Below the pieces are notes generated by a model. That model searched no databases and had not been told where the DNA came from. It saw only the letters and a program-made list of their open reading frames with translations. From contig OZ024756.1 in assembly GCA_964016885.1 (NCBI GenBank), forward strand, positions 32,240,001 through 32,304,000: a stretch of 64,000 nt of DNA, given 5' to 3'. Position numbers and translations under genes: made by a program. This stretch comes from Eledone cirrhosa. Taxonomy: Eukaryota. This document shows positions 370-62,943 of the stretch, piece by piece. How positions within the stretch are numbered: the first letter of the stretch is position 1; each line of letters opens with the position of its first letter.

Positions 370-410
<41 letters not shown>

Positions 411-480
411 AGTAAGTAAGACCCCGACGGCTGAGCTCAAGCCGTTTCGACGGCTAATTCTAATATATATATATATCAAA

Positions 481-698
481 TAGAAATAATAACAAATTTG
501 AAGACTAAAATCCAAAGAGGGCTCGAAAAGGATAAATATATATCAAATATATAAGAACCGTAGAGCAAATATTTATTAAAATAACAGATTAAAGTTTAAG
601 CAAATAATCGCTGCTTTCACCCTTAACGGGATCTTCAGAAGATCCCATTAAGTGTGAAAGCAGCGATTCTTTGCTTAAACTTTACTCTGTTATTTTAA

Positions 699-704
<6 letters not shown>
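481..704. mobile_element. Family C fold-back element (arms ~570-636 / 638-704) among (TA)n tracts
   Basis: AAGCAAATAATCGCTGCTTTCACCCTTAACGGGATCTTC-A-GAAGATCCCATTAAGTGTGAAAGCAGCGATTCTTTGCTT. Homologues at 4705-4764, 12537-12586, 31361-31563. Confidence 0.85.
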
Positions 705-728
<24 letters not shown>

Positions 729-875: not shown

Positions 876-1453
876 ATGAGGTAACGAAAAGTAAATGTTA
901 CCAGGTAATCTTTTATTTTTGTTTTGTTCCAATTTCCTCTCTGCGGGATACAAATTTGATTTTGATTAAAATCCTTTCTAAGTCGCGCGTGTGTGTTCGT
1001 ACGTCTGTTTGTGTATGTGTGTGTGTTTGTGAATGTGTGTGTGTATGTTTATGTATGTGTGCGTTGTGTAACATACGACAGAACATGAAAATGGCTGCTT
1101 GTTTGTCTGCCCTTAAGAGTACTTTCTCAATTTTAAAACAAATTCATTGTATATATATAGATATAAATATTAAAACAATGAAATTAAACAAAAAACTGTT
1201 AATTAATAGTAAAACTCATTAATTTACGATCGTTTCTGGGGTGTGCACGCCGTATGTCCATTATCTGTGTGTATATATATATATATATATATAATATATA
1301 TATATATATTAAAGAGTTAAACAAGATTCAATGTGTATCTCAAAGAATGAGTTTTACAGTAGATTGGAAGCACTCTACAAAAAATTATTTTCCAGAGTTA
1401 TTAATATTAAAATACAAATATTAATAAAATAGATGTTCTTTTGATCAATTAAA

Positions 1454-1504
1454 TTTTATTAGACATATTTCAGAGGTACAACAGTACGTCCTCATCAGAC
1501 AAAA
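1454..1504 (-). ncRNA. Type I minimal hammerhead ribozyme (family D, one stem III mismatch)
   Basis: TTTTGT-CTGATGA-GGACGTAC[TGTT]GTACCTCT-GAA-ATATGTCT-A-ATAAAA. Confidence 0.7.
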
Positions 1505-2181
1505 TATAATGATACATGACATACCCTGAGATGTTAAATGGTTAATATTTAATCAAGGTAGTGATTAACCTAAGAGAAAACTCAACATTTATACCCTAAT
1601 AATGAGAAAATGCGAAAACATAATAAATTCAATAGAGGATGTATGAGTAAGAAAAACGTTGCTTAATGTGACAGCTATAGAGATTTTAAAATGTGGGATA
1701 CTACAAATTATGGTTATCTAGGAAAACGTCTCTTGAATTATAACTGTTTATGAAGGCCACTGATTTAAAGAGAGGAAAGATAAAGGGGAGTAATATGTGC
1801 AGAAAAAAAATTTGTTTTCCTCAAAGGCTAAACGGTTAAGTTTCAAAATATTTACTTTATGTTATTTTAAGGGTGAAGAATCAAAATTTTAGGTTTTTAA
1901 AAAAGTTAATGGTTATATTTATTAATTTTATAAATTCTATAAATGTGTTAACATTTCTAAACTTCTGAATTTTATGAGGACAAAATTAAAGGATTTACCT
2001 AACCAGCGAAAGGAAAATTTACACTGTTGAATATTTTTCCTAAATGTAATCTTTAACGAAAATTACCTATTAGAATGTCAACATTTTCGGCATGTAAAGC
2101 TTATGAACTACTTATTGTTAGAAATATCTAAAAATTAATTGTCAAGTAGTTAGTGTAATGATAACGCAGAGTTTTCACCAA

Positions 2182-3030: not shown

Positions 3031-3260
3031 AACTTAGATAGGAAAATAAAGATATAGAAATAATTGTTTCTACTTTAGGCACAAGGCCAGCAATTATCCA
3101 GTGCATTACTGGTACTTTATTTTATCGACTCCGTAAGGATGAAAGGCATGGATTAAAGTCACTAATATTATGTCATGTATATCAACGTGTCAGCGTGTTA
3201 TTGAACAAGTGCCATTCATTCAAGCGTTATTCCTTCTATAGATAGTCATGTATCTTTATA

Positions 3261-3311
3261 TTTTGTCTGATGAGGACGTACTATTGTATCTCTGAAATAT
3301 GTATAATAAAA
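3261..3311 (+). ncRNA. Type I minimal hammerhead ribozyme (family D)
   Basis: TTTTGT-CTGATGA-GGACGTAC[TATT]GTATCTCT-GAA-ATATGTAT-A-ATAAAA. Confidence 0.78.
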
Positions 3312-3366
3312 TTTAATTGATCAAAAGAACATCTAATTTATTAATATTCGTATTTTAATATATATA

Positions 3367-3574
3367 TAACGTGGTAAGGAACCAGATGGACCATAACGCA
3401 CCAAAGTACTCAATACATAGGGTAGTAGAGTGGGTAATAGGAACGAGTAGGACCCCGACGGTTGAGCTCAAGCCGTTTCGACGGCTAATTCTGGACTAAA
3501 ATTCTGGACTAAAATGTTAGTCCAGAATTACCCGTAAAAACGGCTTGAGCTCAGCCGTCGGGGTCCTACTCGTT

Positions 3575-3578
<4 letters not shown>
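3367..3578. mobile_element. Family B fold-back element inside (TA)n
   Basis: Long arm GTGGTAAGGAACCAG...GACCCCGACGGTTGAGCTCAAGCCGTTTCGACGGCTAATTCTGGACT, then a short inverted arm ending GTTCCTA|(TA)n. Confidence 0.9.
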
Positions 3579-18853: not shown

Positions 18854-19450
18854 ACTCTGGATATAACATCGAAAACCTAACAAAATCTGGTTTCATCTGC
18901 AACCGCATTTCAGTAAATTTGTTCAATCAAATAATAAAATGCAGCTAGACATGACTTAGCCATAATCAGTAAATATTTTCTAGGCAGTAGCCAAGTACTA
19001 TAATTTATTTAATAGATCTAACATCATGTTTCATGAAATATATGTGTATGAAAAAAAAAAAAAAAAAAACTGTTGCAAAGCTCCACCTATATGCGGTCAG
19101 TACAAATAACGCAGGTACCCAAATGCAATTATGAGACGAAATGGCATCTTCCCTGAAGAACAAACTATAAAACATTTCCAGTGGATAACATTACATTTAG
19201 GAAAATTGAAGAGAAGATGACTAAAAAATTCATTTCTACATTCATAGAGCGTCGTTCAGGATGAAAAAAATATGGAACATCTTATTCATAACCGAATGGT
19301 ATTGATATTAAAAACCCTATCTATACTTGAAGAATTTCGTTACTGACTAGTAAACATCGATGATAGACTGAGAGAGGCGGAATCTACTCTGCACAGTGGT
19401 GAAATATCAAATCACTTCTATACAAATTTAGAACTAAAGCAATTGAACTG

Positions 19451-20040
19451 TAATAATTGTTTCTATTTTTAGTATAAGGCCAGCAATTATCCCAGTACAT
19501 TACTGGTGCTTTATTTTATCGACCCAGTAAGGATGAAAGGGGACGATAACTTCGGCGGGATTTGAACTCAGATCATACAGTGCCGTAACTCTATGCTACA
19601 AAGCATGGTGTCCGACGCTCTATCGATACTGCGAATACAAGGCCAAATGAACGGTAATAATTGTTTCTACTTTTGGCACAAGGCCAGTAATACACAGTAC
19701 ATTACTGGTACTTTATTTTATCGACCCCGTAAGGATGAAAGGCAAAGTTAACCTCGGCGGGATTTAAACTCAGATCGTAATGAGTCGTAACTCCATACTG
19801 CTAAGCATGGCGTCCGACCCTCTACCGATACTGCCAACTCACCGCCCTTCGATGAACGGTAATAATTGTTTCTACTTTAGGCACAAGGCCAGCAATTACC
19901 CAGTGCATTACTGGTGCTTTATTTTATCGACCCCGTAAGGATGAAAGGCAAAGTCAACCTCGGCGGGATTTGAACTCAGATCGTAAAGGGACGTAACTAT
20001 GCTGGAAAGCATGGCGTCCGACCCTCTACCGATTCTGCCA
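19451..20040 (-). mobile_element. Three head-to-tail family A SINEs
   Basis: Units 19451-19640, 19655-19848, 19860-20040, with (TGA)AC(G/T)GTAATAAT at all four junctions. Confidence 0.92.
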
Positions 20041-23305: not shown

Positions 23306-25085
23306 TATTCCTTGAATCTCAGTCATTGATGTTGGTTAACTGGAAAGTCCGTTGGATTGAATATCAAGCCACTACCTGCAGCCTCAGATATTCAGGACGT
23401 ATCGGAGGGTTCTTGCCGTTCCAAGCAAGCATGCCTTTTGAAGCGTTCCAAAAAGCGTGAAGGGGCCGATTTTCTTTAACCATCCCTGGAAACCTTTGGA
23501 GATAGTCCCCAGTGCGCCTATGACAATCGGGATCACTTTGACTTCATGGCAGTTCCAAATCCTTTTCACCTCCCACTTTAGGTCCTGGTATCGGTTAATT
23601 TTCTCCCTCTCCTTCTCTTGCACTCTCGTGTCGAACGGGCAGGCCACATCCACAATCAGGCACGATCTTTTTTCTTTGTCCACAACCACCAGGTCAGGTC
23701 TATTGTGTTCCAGTTTTTTGTACGTCTGTATCCTAAAATCCCACAGCACCTTCACCTGACTGTTCTCTATCACCGCCTCTGGCCTATGCTCATACCATTT
23801 CTCAGAATGTGGTAGATTGTTTACTTTGCACAGGTGCCAGTGGATCACCCTGCCCATCACATCGTGTCTCCAGCCCTTATAGTGGGTCTGGGCTAGGTGT
23901 TTACACTCGGACACAATGTGAGCCACAGTCTCCTCTCTCTCTCCACAGATCCTGCACAGTGGGCTAGCCTCCTCCTTGTAGATATGGTGCTTCAACCACT
24001 TCGTTTTGAGGGCCTGCTCCTGCGCAGCCATTAGCATTCCTTCTGTAGCCTTTTTGAGGTCTCCTCTTCTCAACCAGTTCCATGTCTGTGGATCTCTAAA
24101 TTCAGTTTTCTCAAAGAAGGTACTATGAAGGGATTTTCCCTTAAGGCTGCTCTTCCTCCTTGATGTTATTTCCTCCTTGGATATCCCCTGGCCTACTGTC
24201 CCCCCCTTCAGTACAGCTCTGAGCATTGGCTCCTTACTATAGGTCACGTATTTGTATAGGTTGTTTTTCTCCATCTGAACACAGTCCTCTATGCTGATAA
24301 GACCTCTTCCACCCTCAGATCTCCTTAGGTAGAGTCTATCGACATCACTCCTCTTGTGGAACATGTTGTAGATAGTCAATAGCTTCCTAGTCTTCCTATC
24401 CATTTCTTTTTGTTCAGCAACATTCCATCTCAGAATTCCCGCACTGTACCTAATAATAGACACAGCTCGGGAATTTACTGCGCTTATGGCATTTCTGCTG
24501 TTCAGATGTGACTTCAATACGCTCCTTACTCTCCGAATGTATTCAGTTCTTAACAATTCCTTCATTTTTTTGTTCTTTATGCCATCAGCCTCCAGAACGC
24601 CCAAATACTTGTATCCTTCCTCAGAGTCAATTTCCTTTATCATCTCACCTGTTGGTATCTGGATCCCGTTACTTCTGCTCAACCTACCCCTCCTCATCAC
24701 AATGACTCCACATTTACCAATACCAAACTGCATACATATATCACTGCTGAAAATACGGACAGTGTCAACAAGCACATCCAACTCCTTCTCACTTTTCCCG
24801 AAGAGCTTAAGATCGTCCATGAAGAAGAGGTGATTGATGGTAAGCTCTCCCCTTCCCAACTTGTATCCTGCTCTCACTTTTCGCAGCATAATGGTCAAGG
24901 GCATCAGGGCAAGGACAAACAACAGAGGGGACAGGCTATCTCCCTGGAAGATACCTCTCTTGATCTTCACGCTTCCCAAGGATACTCCAGTTGATGTCAA
25001 CTCTGTCTCCCAGGACCCCATACTCCTGCCCAGCAACTGTCTGATGTTATCTGCCACCCTGAAGATCTCCAGGCTTTTGGTGATC

Positions 25086-25087
<2 letters not shown>
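23306..25087 (-). mobile_element. R4/Dong-like LINE insertion (ORF + ~80 bp 3' UTR) inside a (TAA)n microsatellite
   Basis: (TAT)n tracts abut both ends (about 23228-23300 and 25088-25132). Dong/Rex6-type R4-clade elements are known to target (TAA)n. Confidence 0.88.
23384..25087 (-). CDS. 5'-truncated ORF of an R4/Dong-clade (R2 superfamily) non-LTR retrotransposon: reverse transcriptase + CCHC zinc knuckle + restriction-like endonuclease
   Basis: The 557-aa ORF extends 10 more codons in frame to the (TAA)n junction at 25087 (WITKSLEIFR). RT motifs GIFQGDSLSPLLF, HLFFMDDLKLF, YKYLG; GGRGL; CRICGEREETVAHIVSEC; RHD; RLE motifs RPDLVVVD, IVDVACP, EKINRY, IPIVIGALG. No internal stops. There is no native start codon. 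Confidence 0.93.
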
Positions 25088-34242: not shown

Positions 34243-34291
<49 letters not shown>

Positions 34292-34324
34292 GTATATATG
34301 TATATATGTATATATATATATGTA

Positions 34325-34369
<45 letters not shown>

Positions 34370-34403
34370 GTATATATGTATATATATATATATGTATATA
34401 TGC

Positions 34404-34528
<125 letters not shown>

Positions 34529-34649
34529 GGAGGTGAGTTTTATTGTAGTACAATAAAGCAATGCAGATATCGGATAAGCAACACTCTACAGTTTGTGGGA
34601 CTGGAGTATAAATAATATAAGATCAAAAGATGGTTGAAAGAGTTCCATG

Positions 34650-34720
34650 TATTTTATTATGCGCATTTCAAAAACAAATATCTTCATGCGATGATATTTG
34701 CGTTTTCGTCAGATAAAATA
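34650..34720 (-). ncRNA. Type I minimal hammerhead ribozyme (best-formed copy)
   Basis: TATTTTAT-CTGACGA-AAACGCAAATATC[10 nt]GATATTTGTTTTT-GAA-ATGCGCAT-A-ATAAAATA: perfect 8-bp stem I, ~13-bp stem II with one mismatch, perfectly palindromic stem III, NUH = AUA. Confidence 0.85.
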
Positions 34721-34851
34721 GGGAGACATGATATGAAGGTTAAAAAACACTTGTGAATAGTGCAGTTTTAAATCAACATATGTTGATATGTTGACTTAAA
34801 ACTGCACTATTCACAAGTGTTTTTTAACCTTCATATCATGTCTCCCTATTT
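34716..34851. repeat. Near-perfect inverted repeat (~60-bp arms) adjoining the 34650 hammerhead
   Basis: AAATAGGGAGACATGATATGAAGGTTAAAAAACACTTGTGAATAGTGCAGTTTTAA followed by its reverse complement. Confidence 0.92.
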
Positions 34852-35814: not shown

Positions 35815-35897
<83 letters not shown>

Positions 35898-35901
<4 letters not shown>

Positions 35902-36091
35902 AACCAGTAAGACCCCGACAGCTGAGCTCAAGCCGTTTCGACGGCTAATTCTGGACTCCAGAATTAGCCGTCGAAACGGCTTGAGCTCAGCTGTCGGGGT
36001 CTTACTGGTTCCTATTACCCACTCTACTACCTCAAGTATTGAGTACTTTGGTGCGTTATGGTCCACCTGGTTCCTTACCACACTTCCTTCG

Positions 36092-36094
<3 letters not shown>
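35898..36094. mobile_element. Family B fold-back element: perfect 58-bp arms around a single base (35956) plus 80-bp extension, inside (TA)n
   Basis: 35898-35955 is the exact reverse complement of 35957-36014. Confidence 0.92.
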
Positions 36095-36141
<47 letters not shown>

Positions 36142-47249: not shown

Positions 47250-47655
47250 GGCAGAAGAGAGAATTAGCTGTGAAATTTATACATTAAAAGCAATATTCTT
47301 TTCTCCTTTTATGAAATATGAACAGACTCATCTGAATTTCGCTCTGTGTCTTATATATGTTTTGTCTGTATATATGTATGTGTCTGTATGTATGCATATA
47401 ATTACGATATATATATATATATATATATATTTATGTATACAAGTATAAAATCACCTGAGGTTTAGAAGATGGCAGCGATTTGAATTTGAAAATTGAATTG
47501 AATTAGCAGCTTTCACAGTAAATGGTTTTATTAGAGAACATATTCTAATAGCGATAACGAGGCGTAAAATAGCCCACATATGGGAATCTGCACGCCTGGG
47601 ATACGAACAGACAATTCTAAGCGGCCTAAAAGTTGGGCAAGGTTGTGTGATCGGC

Positions 47656-47931
47656 AAAGAAATTGTGGTAAGAAACCAGGTGGACCATAACACATCAGAG
47701 TACCCGATACTTAGAGTAGTAGAGTGTGTCATTGGAAAAGAGTCAGGACCCCGACGCCTGAGCTCCGGCCGTTTCGACAGCTATTTCAGGACGTTTATTC
47801 CTGAAATAGCCGTCGAACGGCTTGAGCTCTGCCGTCCGGTCATACGTTTTCCTATTTCCCACTCTACACCTTAAGTATTGAGTACTCTGGTGCGTTATGG
47901 TCCATTTGGTTCCTTCCCACAATTACCTTTG

Positions 47932-47934
<3 letters not shown>
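47656..47934. mobile_element. Family B: two long, mutually diverged arms in inverted orientation
   Basis: 47656-47792 and 47799-47934 are homologous and inverted. Confidence 0.85.
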
Positions 47935-48026
<92 letters not shown>

Positions 48027-48377: not shown

Positions 48378-48588
48378 CGAAGGAAATGTGGTAAGGAACC
48401 AGGTGGACGATAACGCACCAAAGTACTCAATACTTAGGGTAGTAGAGTGGGTAATAGGAACAAGTAAGACCCCGACGGCTGAGCTCAAGCCGTTTCGACG
48501 GCTAATTCTGTACTGAATTAGCCGTCGAATTGAGTACAGAATTAGCTGTCGAAACGGCTTGAGCTCAGCCGTCGGGGTCTTACTTGTT

Positions 48589-48592
<4 letters not shown>
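48375..48592. mobile_element. Family B fold-back element inside (TA)n
   Basis: Same long-arm/short-arm layout, with a rearranged centre at 48510-48540. Confidence 0.9.
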
Positions 48593-48653
<61 letters not shown>

Positions 48654-48755
48654 ATATATATATATATATATATACTCTAGATTAAAAAATATTTTCCAGA
48701 GTTATTAATATTAATTCAAATATTAACAAAATAGATATCCTTGTGATCAATTAAA

Positions 48756-48818
48756 TTGTATTATACATATTTCAGAGATACTGAATTAAGTTGAACAGTA
48801 CGTCCTCATCAGATAAAA
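48756..48818 (-). ncRNA. Type I minimal hammerhead ribozyme (family D, left arm of palindrome)
   Basis: TTTTAT-CTGATGA-GGACGTACTG[12 nt]CAGTATCTCT-GAA-ATATGTAT-A-ATACAA. Confidence 0.75.
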
Positions 48819-48927
48819 TAAAATGATACATGACATATCCTGACATGGTAGATGGTTAAGATTTAACCAAGGTACCTTGATTAAATTTAACCATCTACCA
48901 TGTCAGGGTATGTCATGAATCATTTTA

Positions 48928-48990
48928 TTTTATCTGATGAGGACGTACTGTTGAACTTAATTCATTACCTCTGAAATATGTATAATAAAA
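48928..48990 (+). ncRNA. Type I minimal hammerhead ribozyme (family D, right arm of palindrome)
   Basis: TTTTAT-CTGATGA-GGACGTACTG[12 nt]CATTACCTCT-GAA-ATATGTAT-A-ATAAAA. Confidence 0.77.
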
Positions 48991-49037
48991 TTTAATTGAT
49001 CACAAGGATATCTATTTTGTTAATATTTGAATTAATA

Positions 49038-49095
<58 letters not shown>

Positions 49096-49228
49096 TATAT
49101 ATATATACATATACATATTAACGTACGTGTGTCTGCATTTCACAGACAGACACACACACCCATACGTATATAAATATATATTTAGTCTTCACATTTATTA
49201 TTATTACTATATATTATATATATATATG

Positions 49229-49324
<96 letters not shown>

Positions 49325-49838
49325 CGCGCGTGTGTGTGTGTGAGAGAGAATGTATTGATATTCTTCTCTAAAGATTATCTTCAATGCCTGGTAGCAAGAG
49401 GACGCATTGTAAGCTATCATATAATAAAAATAATAATTTTTGCTCGTCCATCCGATTCTTCTTCTTCTTCTTCTTCCTCTCTTTCTTCTTCATTAATTAT
49501 AGTCATTGGCTTCTTTCAGTTTTCCTTCGCTGATTGTTCGTTTATTCAATTCCATTCAACTCAGAATCTTATGTAAGTATTCATGTGACTTGACATATAA
49601 ACCATCACTCCTTCCACCCCTCCCCAACTTTCGTTGCTCCTCCCACATACCATCATAAATAGTTACCCCCACCATTCAGCACTCCTCCTACCCTAATTGT
49701 GTCATCACTCCTCCCTCTCATCCCACACACCACCATAGCTACCCCCCCCCCATTTCTCATTCATCAACAATCTCATTTCCTACGATATTCCTCGCTCTCA
49801 GACCCTCATCATGCTATATATATATATATATATATAAA

Positions 49839-50187
49839 AAAAAGATGAAATCGAAAATGCAACTGGAGTCTTCTTTAAAAAAAATATATATATTTATTTG
49901 GTTCCTTTACCGGTTTCTCAGTTCTTCTGCTTTTCAAAAGTAGAGTTGAAATGGAGGGTCTGTGGTTTTTCTCACAGATGAGAAAAACCACCGACCCTCC
50001 ATCTTAACTCTACTTTTGAAAAGCAGAAGAACTGCGAAACCGGTAAAGGAACCAAATAAATATATATATTTTTTAAAAATAAGACTCCAGTTGCATTTTC
50101 GATTTCATCTTTTCTTCTTTATACTTTCACTCGTGTAGGACACCTCGGTTATTTTTCATTTTGTAAAAAAAACAAAAGAAACCTTAC

Positions 50188-59077: not shown

Positions 59078-59119
59078 GATATTAAACAAATGGAAACTAT
59101 ATTTATAAAACCATATTTA

Positions 59120-59181
59120 TTTCAATATACGTATTTCAGGGATACCATATTAAAAATATGGCATGCCTTCGTCAGATAAAA
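59120..59181 (-). ncRNA. Type I minimal hammerhead ribozyme
   Basis: TTTTAT-CTGACGA-AGGCATGCCATATT[TTT]AATATGGTATCCCT-GAA-ATACGTAT-A-TTGAAA: 14-position stem II with one mismatch, palindromic stem III, one mismatch closing stem I. Confidence 0.75.
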
Positions 59182-59213
59182 TACAATATATAAACAATTT
59201 TAAATAAAACTTT

Positions 59214-59257
<44 letters not shown>

Positions 59258-59568
59258 AAAATGTTCAAGACCCCGACGGCATTTTCCTATTACCCACTCT
59301 ACTACCCAAAGTATTGAGTACTCTGGTGTATTATGGTCCACCTGGTTACTTACCATACTTCCTGCTACTCGTGTGTCGAATGAAGCGAGTAAACTGGTTG
59401 GCCTCATAAACAAACATATTGTACAACTGACAAACTTAAATAATTTGAAATATGTGTATATCTATATAAATATACCAATACATATACTTATGCTTCTACC
59501 TATGTGTATACGTGTATACAGTGTATATACACACTCATGCACACTATAAACTCATCCACACACACATA

Positions 59569-59958: not shown

Positions 59959-60264
59959 ATGTGTGTGTATGTATGTGTGTGCGTCTGTGTGTATGTCATT
60001 ATGTATATATCCATAGAAAAGAAAGAGGGAGAGAGAGATTATGTGTTGTAATAACTCAATATTTTAGAGAATCTCTTTCAACAGTAAGTTAGTCATTTTG
60101 TAACAGCTGTCTAATAAAAAGCATTACAACCTAATTTACTTCTCTCTGTGATGAATATTAATCTCCATATATCATTATATACTTCATCATTGTAGCAACA
60201 TTTACATACAATTACAGCAGTACTATCAGCATTAATAAACCTAACACTAAATATATATACTCAA

Positions 60265-60936
60265 TAATAATTGTTTCTACTTTAGGCACAAGGCCAGCAA
60301 TTACCCAGTGCATTACTGGTACTTTATTTTATCGACCCCGTAAGGATGAAAGGCAAAATCAACCTCGGCGGGATTTGAACTCAGATCGTAAAGGGACATA
60401 ACTATGCTGGAAAAAATGGTGTCCGACCCTCTACCGATACTGCCAATCCACGCCCTAATATATATATACTCAATAATAATGGTGATAATGATAATGATGA
60501 TAATGATGATGTTAATATTAATAATTGTTTCTATTTTAGGCACAAGGCTAGCAATTACCTAGTACATTACTGGTACTTTATTTTATCGACCCCGTAGGGA
60601 TGAAAGGCAAAGTTAACCTCGGCGGGAGTTGAACTCAGATCATAAAGGGACGTAACTCTATGCCTCAAAGCATGGTGTCCGACTATCTACCGGCACTGCT
60701 AATTAATATTAATAATAATTGTTTCTACTTTGGGCACAAAACCAGCAATTTTGGGGAATGGGAATGTCAATTAAATCGACCCCAGTGCATTACTGGTATT
60801 TTATTTTATCGACGTCGTAAATGATGAAAAGCAAGGCTAACCTCGGTGGGATTGGAAACTCAGAACATAAAAGGCCATAATTCTATGACGCAAAGCATGG
60901 TTTCCGATGCTTTACCGATTCTTACAATCGACCGCA
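60265..60936 (-). mobile_element. Three head-to-tail family A SINEs
   Basis: Units 60265-60455, 60520-60700, 60714-60936. The first is flanked by a duplicated ATATATATACTCAATAATAAT. Confidence 0.92.
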
Positions 60937-62731: not shown

Positions 62732-62943
62732 TCAGTAAACCGCGCCATAATGCGACACTGCTTTTATTTAGTCGATCGTTTCGACCCTTGTAATTGTATT
62801 TTGAATCTGGTCCTTATTTTAGCGATCTCGTTTTTGTCGAAGAGACATAAACATACAAATATACCAGATTCAAAATACAATTACAAGGGCCGAAACGATC
62901 GACTAAATAAAAGCAGTGTCGCATTATAGCCGCAGTTTACTGA
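62732..62943. repeat. Inverted repeat (~80-bp arms, ~50-bp spacer) made of a SINE-like sequence
   Basis: TCAGTAAAC...ATAATGCGACACTGCTTTTATTTAGTCGATCGTTTCGACCCTTGTAATTGTATTTTGAATCTGGT and its reverse complement at 62863-62943. Confidence 0.88.

What the first reader, a model, noticed from the sequence alone, without database searches (positions are those of the whole stretch)
34650..34720. Hammerhead covariation across dispersed copies: stems II and III change sequence but keep pairing
Seen: the copies at 1454, 3261, 34650, 48756, 48928 and 59120 keep TTTTRT-CTGAYGA ... GAA-A....T-A-(A/T)TNNAA. Stem II differs completely between groups (GGACGTAC.., AAACGCAAATATC.., AGGCATGCCATATT..), yet the fourth position is a mismatched C in all of them. 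Stem III switches among the self-complementary ATGCGCAT and ATACGTAT and the near-palindrome ATATGTAT. Known: palindromic short stem III is typical of hammerheads that cleave as dimers. Inference: structure is under selection, and the shared stem II mismatch may be a tertiary or protein contact.
Basis: partly seen in the sequence, partly recalled or inferred. Interest (0 to 1): 0.75.

Follow-up and report, generated by a model that had tools for sequence, protein, structure and literature searches.

The report
Retrotransposon hammerhead keeps one unpaired cytosine
These are copies of a predicted self-cutting RNA motif at the end of a known kind of jumping gene, present over 70,000 times in this animal genome; its second helix changes sequence but keeps its pairing, except for one cytosine that stays unpaired, likely as a contact point for the element's own protein.

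Summary
The six motifs are real (four on the minus strand) but come from only three lineages. They are type I hammerheads at the 3' end of Hydra-clade Penelope-like retrotransposons: relatives lie 0.8-2 kb downstream of RT/GIY-YIG ORFs, with 72,787 pattern matches genome-wide (control 1). Stem II covariation holds: across 25-26 subfamilies, pairs 10.2/3/5/6 are never mismatched (tree-aware null P about 2-6e-4). C10.4 is fixed in 25 of 25 subfamilies. Its partner is C, U or A in amplified families and G in only 251 scattered copies. None of 26 published Hydra-clade hammerhead rows shows this mismatch; 16 have C10.4 paired with G. Stem III stays self-complementary, but its covariation is not significant (P 0.07-0.24). 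Almost no copies end at the cleavage site, and no RNA data or cleavage assay was available. Best reading: a weak, dimer- or protein-dependent hammerhead whose unpaired C is a recognition point. A tertiary contact, an alternative fold with a conserved upstream GGUAYGUC motif, or drift remain possible. This scan has noted the same mismatch several times elsewhere in this genome. Verdict: a new variant of a known kind.

The parts
34650..34720 (-). Type I hammerhead motif, family B (8-bp A-U stem I, CUGACGA core, 36-nt stem-loop II, GAAA, palindromic AUGCGCAU stem III)
34713..34720 (-). Stem I 5' strand (2.8-2.1)
34706..34712 (-). Catalytic core C3-A9 (CUGACGA)
34670..34705 (-). Stem-loop II; C10.4 at 34702 opposite U11.4 at 34673
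34659..34669 (-). G12-A15.1, 6-nt palindromic insert and U16.1 (stem III, 8 bp only as an intermolecular duplex)
34657..34658 (-). Predicted cleavage site after AUA (A17 at 34658)
   Evidence: inferred from hammerhead numbering; not tested
34650..34657 (-). Stem I 3' strand (1.1-1.8)
34526..34782 (-). 5'-truncated 3' end (pLTR plus tail) of a Hydra-clade Penelope-like element, ending at the (TA)n array 34245-34525; 92% identical to the 3' end of the intact-ORF element in L031
34783..34851 (+). Inverted partial copy of the pLTR, stopping just before the hammerhead
1452..1506 (-). Family A hammerhead copy, stem III broken at 16.2; family A 3' UTR extends over 1272-2156
3259..3313 (+). Family A hammerhead copy (short stem-loop II)
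48754..48820 (-). Family A hammerhead, left arm of the inverted insertion 48608-49118
48926..48992 (+). Family A hammerhead, right arm of the same inverted insertion
59118..59183 (-). Family C hammerhead copy

Best explanation
The motifs are hammerhead-shaped RNA elements at the 3' end of Hydra-clade Penelope-like retrotransposons, and their fold is kept by selection on replicating element lineages; they are predicted to cut poorly alone and likely need pairing with a second copy or the element's own RT-endonuclease protein, with the unpaired C10.4 likely serving as a recognition point for that protein. Shown: location downstream of Hydra-type ORFs, two fixed 3' ends at (TA)n, stem II covariation, fixed C10.4 with a free partner. 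Inferred: dimerisation through the self-complementary stem III between hammerheads of tandem units, protein assistance, the role of C10.4, and cleavage itself. Most genomic copies appear to be reverse-transcribed from uncut RNA and then decay.
For: L031 holds an intact 821-aa ORF (YRDD, DKT, RLRW, CxCX5C, CxxC/CxH, C-terminal endonuclease) with the same hammerhead family about 1.06 kb downstream on the sense strand and an inverted copy upstream. These motifs match the Hydra clade definition. Lineages A, B, C, E and F each have an endonuclease 0.8-2 kb upstream; A, C, E and F are mostly 45-50% identical to B. Stem II pairs 10.2/3/5/6: 104 of 104 cells canonical on the flank tree (null 24-25 mismatches, P=5.5e-4); 100 of 100 on the protein-guided tree (P=2e-4); slid registers give 37-63% against 96%. 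C10.4: no change in 25 subfamilies against a mean of 3.1 for neighbouring 5' positions (Poisson P about 0.04); non-C in 3,127 of 72,787 copies (4.3%) against 2.1% at catalytic C3. Position 11.4 is C, U or A in amplified families (2,786 A copies, mostly one family) and G in only 251 scattered copies: one base fixed, its partner free, as expected of a recognised unpaired base. Closing stem III within a monomer costs about 2-4 kcal/mol, whereas the palindrome forms a duplex of -2 to -10.5. An anole Penelope-like hammerhead cut only in the presence of the element's protein and was not needed for insertion in vitro (PMC11167929). Here 1 family B copy ends at the cleavage site against 2 at a control site, and 5' breaks number 150 near the site against 101 at a control site.
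Against: No cleavage, binding or expression data. The fixation of C10.4 is only borderline (P about 0.04), and 10.6 and 10.7 also change little (1-2 times). With only about three family-level changes at 11.4, the absence of G there is not significant on its own (my estimate). 16 of 26 published Hydra-clade rows have C10.4 paired with G, so the C may simply be ancestral. Stem III covariation is not significant (P 0.07-0.24) and rests largely on one lineage. The U.G versus C.A asymmetry at its centre (27,765 against 578) could also come from an A-to-G bias, although private changes show none (11 A>G, 9 T>C). Subfamilies were assigned by hand-made patterns, 24 of 278 motifs were left unassigned, and the null is my own simulation, not R-scape.
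Confidence: 0.45

Rival explanations
1. C10.4 makes an RNA tertiary contact, or a kink that lets stem II dock on stem I, replacing the loop 2 to stem I contact of canonical hammerheads.
For: In canonical hammerheads stem II has 4 bp and its capping loop contacts U1.7 (PMC11875169 passages), so 10.4/11.4 lies where the helices meet. Stem I here is almost invariant, and U1.7 is kept in 25 of 26 subfamilies.
Against: U1.7 is paired with 2.7 in a continuous 8-bp helix, and stem I has no invariant free G. The partner 11.4 changes among C, U and A with no matching change in stem I.
Confidence: 0.2
2. C10.4 pairs with the G of a conserved upstream GGUAYGUC motif in an alternative, ribozyme-off fold. 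The mismatch weakens stem II so that the RNA can switch.
For: The motif is kept 10-31 nt upstream of stem I in lineages A, C, D, E, F and G although the spacing changes. In 11 of 27 subfamilies it, or a GUGUU stretch in B1a, is the best flank complement to the 5' strand of stem II. It wins in the predicted fold of 4 of 12 tested subfamilies, in some also sequestering the core. A G at 11.4 would add roughly 4-7 kcal/mol to stem II in most families.
Against: No compensatory change: D1-D4 have C10.6 opposite the motif's A, C1/C3/C5 have the motif's C opposite A10.5, and E/F break the 10.8 pair. In B the pairing is weaker than stem II, yet C10.4 is kept. The motif could equally be a promoter, protein site or splice donor.
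Confidence: 0.15
3. The mismatch is a tolerated frozen accident: an ancestor lost the G partner of an ancestral C-G pair, and a long stem II made repair unnecessary.
For: 16 of 26 published Hydra-clade rows have C-G at this place. Isolated fourth-pair mismatches occur in the published alignment of 56 Penelope-type hammerheads (sea urchin C.A, Clonorchis U.U). P for no change at 10.4 is only about 0.04.
Against: An unpaired C, followed by G in 17 of 26 subfamilies (a mutable CpG), stayed fixed across lineages whose proteins are about 50% identical, while unpaired N7 changed 4 times and neighbouring pairs changed repeatedly. A C-to-U change would be structurally neutral, yet no subfamily fixed it.
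Confidence: 0.2

Closest known systems
Hammerheads of Hydra-clade Penelope-like elements, incl. Hydra-1_Obim (Craig et al. 2021, PMC8557442; section 11, passages, File S1/S2 tables and alignment passages read)
   Same: Same ORF signature (DKT, RWK-like, CxCX5C, CxxC/CxH, C-terminal endonuclease), (TA)n insertion, type I hammerhead near the 3' end with a 3-4-bp palindromic stem III and a loose 10.1-11.1 pair.
   Different: None of the 26 Hydra rows in File S2 has an internal mismatch at 10.4. Stem I here is 8 A-U pairs, pair 15.2-16.2 is U-A giving an AUA triplet, and the full element is about 3.7 kb against generally under 3 kb.
Minimal hammerheads (min-HHR) in pLTRs of metazoan Penelope-like elements (Cervera and de la Pena 2014, PMC4209133; main text parts 1-2 of 4, supplement parts 1-2 of 3 read)
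   Same: Long helix II, palindromic 15.2-16.2 and loop 3, many consensus families with compensatory changes per genome, mostly truncated solo copies and inverted pairs 100-700 bp apart, proposed dimer cleavage with low activity.
   Different: Their consensus has an extra base after A9 and a G10.1-C11.1 pair; here 10.1-11.1 is mostly A-U or G.U. The largest count they give is about 9,000 per genome against 72,787 here. They describe no conserved internal mismatch.
Poseidon element hammerhead of the green anole (Frangieh et al. 2024, PMC11167929; parts 1-2 of 4 read)
   Same: Penelope-like hammerhead, two reverse-transcription start sites defining a tail, no ends at the cleavage site.
   Different: There the ORF starts in stem II and the tail is 30-40 nt. 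Here the hammerhead is non-coding, about 240 nt upstream of the likely ATG in a tandem unit, and the two end sites are about 85-95 nt apart. Protein dependence is shown there and only inferred here.
Dimer-cleaving small hammerhead variants associated with Penelope-like elements (Lunse, Weinberg and Breaker 2017; not held, known through passages of PMC6765202 and recall)
   Same: Short stem III, type I, dimer cleavage.
   Different: Could not check whether its alignments contain a 10.4 mismatch class.

Membership tests
Type I hammerhead ribozyme | Core CUGANGA, GAAA and UH in order around a three-way junction with open stem I | tested here: met
   core invariant at subfamily level except N7 (C3 changes come from copies I picked for that mutation)
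Type I hammerhead ribozyme | Stems I and II base-paired, with covariation | tested here: met
   stem II P 2-6e-4; stem I paired in 206 of 208 cells but only one-sided changes
Type I hammerhead ribozyme | Stable stem III in the monomer | tested here: not met
   2 bp plus a 4-nt loop, unfavourable by about 2-4 kcal/mol; 8-bp self-duplex possible
Type I hammerhead ribozyme | Canonical G10.1-C11.1 pair | tested here: not met
   A-U 14, G.U 8, G-C 2, A.C 1, U.U 1 of 26 subfamilies; published Hydra rows are also loose here
Type I hammerhead ribozyme | Mg2+-dependent self-cleavage after H17 | not testable with these tools
   no assay; copy ends show no footprint at the site
Rfam hammerhead families | Match to an Rfam hammerhead covariance model | tested here: not met
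   none among the 9 matches at E<=10 for 34600-34740
Hydra-clade Penelope-like element | Single ORF with RT and C-terminal GIY-YIG-type endonuclease | tested here: met
   L031 821-aa ORF matches the Hydra alignment by eye; Pfam gave no hit
Hydra-clade Penelope-like element | DKT, RWK-like motif, CxCX5C linker, CxxC and CxH around conserved E and N | tested here: met
   SDKT, RLRW, CNCRIKNKC, CNLC, CLH in L031
Hydra-clade Penelope-like element | (TA)n insertion, pLTR with tandem or inverted arrangement, optional tail | tested here: met
   223 of 254 assigned motifs have (TA)5 within 200 nt, in two peaks; L031, L034, L036, L104 arrangements
Hydra-clade Penelope-like element | Placement in the clade by RT phylogeny with reference elements | not tested
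   reference sequences were seen only in a paper supplement and compared by eye
Non-LTR retrozyme | Non-coding tandem repeats of 150-400 nt (size recalled) with one hammerhead per unit | tested here: not met
   copies are solo or inverted 3' ends of ORF-bearing elements

The most novel reading that the evidence does not exclude
A protein-triggered ribozyme switch: in nascent element RNA the conserved upstream GGUAYGUC motif captures C10.4 and part of the core to keep the hammerhead off, and the element's RT-endonuclease refolds it and reads the unpaired C, so that cutting is timed to retrotransposition.
Probability: 0.12. Interest if true: 0.7.

Novelty: new variant of a known kind. Interest (0 to 1): 0.42.

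Why it matters
Why Penelope-like elements keep hammerheads that barely cut in vitro is an open question (PMC4209133, PMC8557442, PMC11167929). A fixed unpaired base in an otherwise covarying helix, in a lineage with apparently intact ORFs and tens of thousands of copies, gives a single-nucleotide handle for testing protein assistance, dimer cleavage and the need for the hammerhead in retrotransposition. The setting itself is known, so the gain is a testable detail and not a new system.

Tried and rejected
Rfam: no hammerhead model among the 150 listed of 407 window matches or the 9 local matches. Pfam and PDB searches of the ORF gave nothing useful, so the clade call rests on motifs. No RNA holder listed; this says nothing about expression. 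Coding constraint on C10.4 rejected: stem-loop II lengths vary from 20 to 36 nt and not in multiples of three. Spliced, intron-less copies starting at the upstream GTAYGT motif: no joint listed for family C, and no GT..AG joint for family B; contigs cannot show absence. Cleavage footprint in copy ends: none clear (about a fifth of the listed rows are 3-nt deletions, and the two patterns are only roughly matched). A register with an extra base after A9 was rejected by hand for most families because it breaks stem II; slid registers pair far less. An outgroup hammerhead beside three more distant Hydra-like endonucleases was not found. Monomer folding is no better than shuffles for 4 of 6 window copies. 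Dropped rows: subfamilies B1b and F2 (fewer than two unbiased loci), and B4 (two-member tie); copies picked for mutations at 10.4, 11.4 or the stem III centre were flagged and left out of the consensus. Literature searches for the mismatch ('hammerhead ribozyme' + 'mismatch in stem II'; 'hammerhead' + 'Penelope' + 'C-C mismatch'; 'octopus' + 'hammerhead ribozyme') found no description. Lunse et al. 2017 and its supplements could not be seen and may bear on novelty.

Full report
Observation. All six motifs are present, four on the minus strand. The focal copy reads on the minus strand: stem I 34720-34713, core CUGACGA 34712-34706, stem-loop II 34705-34670, GAAA, the insert UGCGCA, U16.1, A17 (34658) and stem I 34657-34650. 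Four copies share one stem II type (family A), so the window holds only three lineages, and three A copies carry private lesions. A pattern for the class matches 72,787 places in the 3.0-Gb genome against 1 for the control. The host is an animal; the (TA)n-rich DNA and zinc-finger arrays suggest an octopod, which is my inference.

What it is. The focal copy is the 3' end of a retroelement: 34465-34782 is 92% identical to the end of L031, and 34783-34851 is an inverted partial arm. L031 holds an intact 821-aa ORF with the same hammerhead family about 1.06 kb downstream on the sense strand and an inverted copy upstream. The ORF has YRDD, SDKT, RLRW, CNCRIKNKC, CNLC and CLH, the features that Craig et al. 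2021 give for the Hydra clade of Penelope-like elements (section 11; alignment passages). Lineages A, B, C, E and F each have an endonuclease 0.8-2 kb upstream; A, C, E and F are mostly 45-50% identical to B, and together they group apart from three other Hydra-like endonucleases. 223 of 254 assigned motifs are followed by (TA)n at about +40-55 or +130-150 nt, the two-ended tail that Frangieh et al. 2024 trace to two reverse-transcription starts. Hammerheads in these repeats, their many covarying families, inverted pairs and palindromic stem III are described in Cervera and de la Pena 2014.

Covariation. From fetched loci I extracted 281 motifs, kept 278, assigned 254 to 31 patterns and left 24 unassigned. 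Consensus used only copies not picked for stem II or III mutations. In 26 subfamilies, pairs 10.2, 10.3, 10.5 and 10.6 are canonical in 104 of 104 cells, with two-sided changes (A-U/G-C, U-A/C-G) and G.U intermediates. Columns re-evolved independently on the flank tree give 24-25 mismatches, P=5.5e-4; on a protein-guided topology with 25 subfamilies P=2e-4. Pair 10.1 is looser (A.C and U.U once each). Stem I is paired in 206 of 208 cells, but only through one-sided changes. Stem III stays self-complementary (AUGCGCAU, AUAUGUAU, AUAUAUAU, AUACGUAU), but covariation is not significant (P 0.07-0.24). Its centre is U.G-compatible in 27,765 copies and C.A in 578 scattered ones. This fits dimer pairing but could also reflect an A-to-G bias; private changes show no such bias (11 against 9). 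The null is my own simulation, and the subfamilies are related and hand-defined.

The unpaired C. C10.4 is fixed in 25 of 25 subfamilies, against a mean of 3.1 changes at neighbouring 5' positions (P about 0.04). Genome-wide 4.3% of copies lack it, against 2.1% for catalytic C3; many listed exceptions are C-to-T before G. The partner is C (20 subfamilies), U (4) or A (1; 2,786 copies), and G in only 251 scattered copies. With about three family-level changes, 'never G' is not significant by itself. By my reading none of the 26 Hydra rows in File S2 of Craig et al. has this mismatch, and 16 have C-G there. Two isolated fourth-pair mismatches appear among 56 published motifs. Three literature searches found no description; Lunse et al. 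2017 could not be read.

How it most likely works. An all A-U stem I, a weak 10.1 pair, an AUA triplet and a 2-bp monomer stem III predict poor cutting alone; the effects of pair 10.1 and of AUA on rate are recalled. Tandem units put two same-strand hammerheads 3-4 kb apart (L036, L104), which would allow a dimer. The one reconstituted Penelope-like hammerhead cut only with its protein and was dispensable for insertion. Copy ends here show no footprint at the site (1 against 2; 150 against 101), so uncut RNA appears to be the template. A fixed base with a free partner fits a recognised unpaired base, so I favour protein recognition (0.45) over a tertiary contact (0.2), drift (0.2) and an alternative fold (0.15). 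The last rests on a conserved upstream GGUAYGUC motif whose G can pair with C10.4: it, or a GUGUU stretch in B1a, is the best complement in 11 of 27 subfamilies and wins in 4 of 12 folds, but it shows no compensation and fails in D1-D4, F and most of B.

Verdict. It works like, and its carrier meets the tested features of, Hydra-clade Penelope-like elements and their hammerheads; the fixed unpaired C makes it a new variant. The scan has recorded the same feature on other pieces of this genome; those notes are not independent evidence. Interest 0.42.

Noticed in passing
L032:4190-4290 and L031:4820-4930: Run X4 (not on record as RNA, a different sample from X1) shows many A-to-G differences on the element's sense strand in and around the family C hammerhead that are nearly absent from X1; family B shows both A-to-G and T-to-C. 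A hint of A-to-I editing of element transcripts; it needs DNA of the same individual.
   Followed up: partly
10-31 nt upstream of stem I in lineages A, C, D, E, F, G (e.g. window 1517-1526, minus strand): Conserved GGTAYGTCA motif with variable spacing; could be an anti-ribozyme strand, splice donor, promoter or protein site. In several lineages an extended stem I begins just after it.
   Followed up: partly
window 406-461, 3358-3576, 35897-36100, 47655-47950, 48378-48593, 59284-59363: A second abundant (TA)n-inserted repeat family, often palindromic, ending in what looks like the 3' half of a hammerhead with a longer stem III; often next to the Hydra-type copies.
   Followed up: no
window 23384-25087 (-): 567-aa open frame of a non-LTR retrotransposon reverse transcriptase with a C-terminal zinc-knuckle and restriction-like endonuclease motif (read by eye).
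   Followed up: no
window 3059-3148, 60263-60420 and about 20 other places: Abundant SINE-like repeat with tRNA-like boxes, sometimes in tandem (19440-20040); in some loci it interrupts the hammerheads just after the AUA site.
   Followed up: no
window 569-705, 729-876, 49837-50116, 62739-62936: Further near-perfect inverted repeats, probably fold-back insertions of other elements.
   Followed up: no
run X5 (organism B): Families B and C are also present in a run labelled as another organism, with no variant listed at C10.4.
   Followed up: partly
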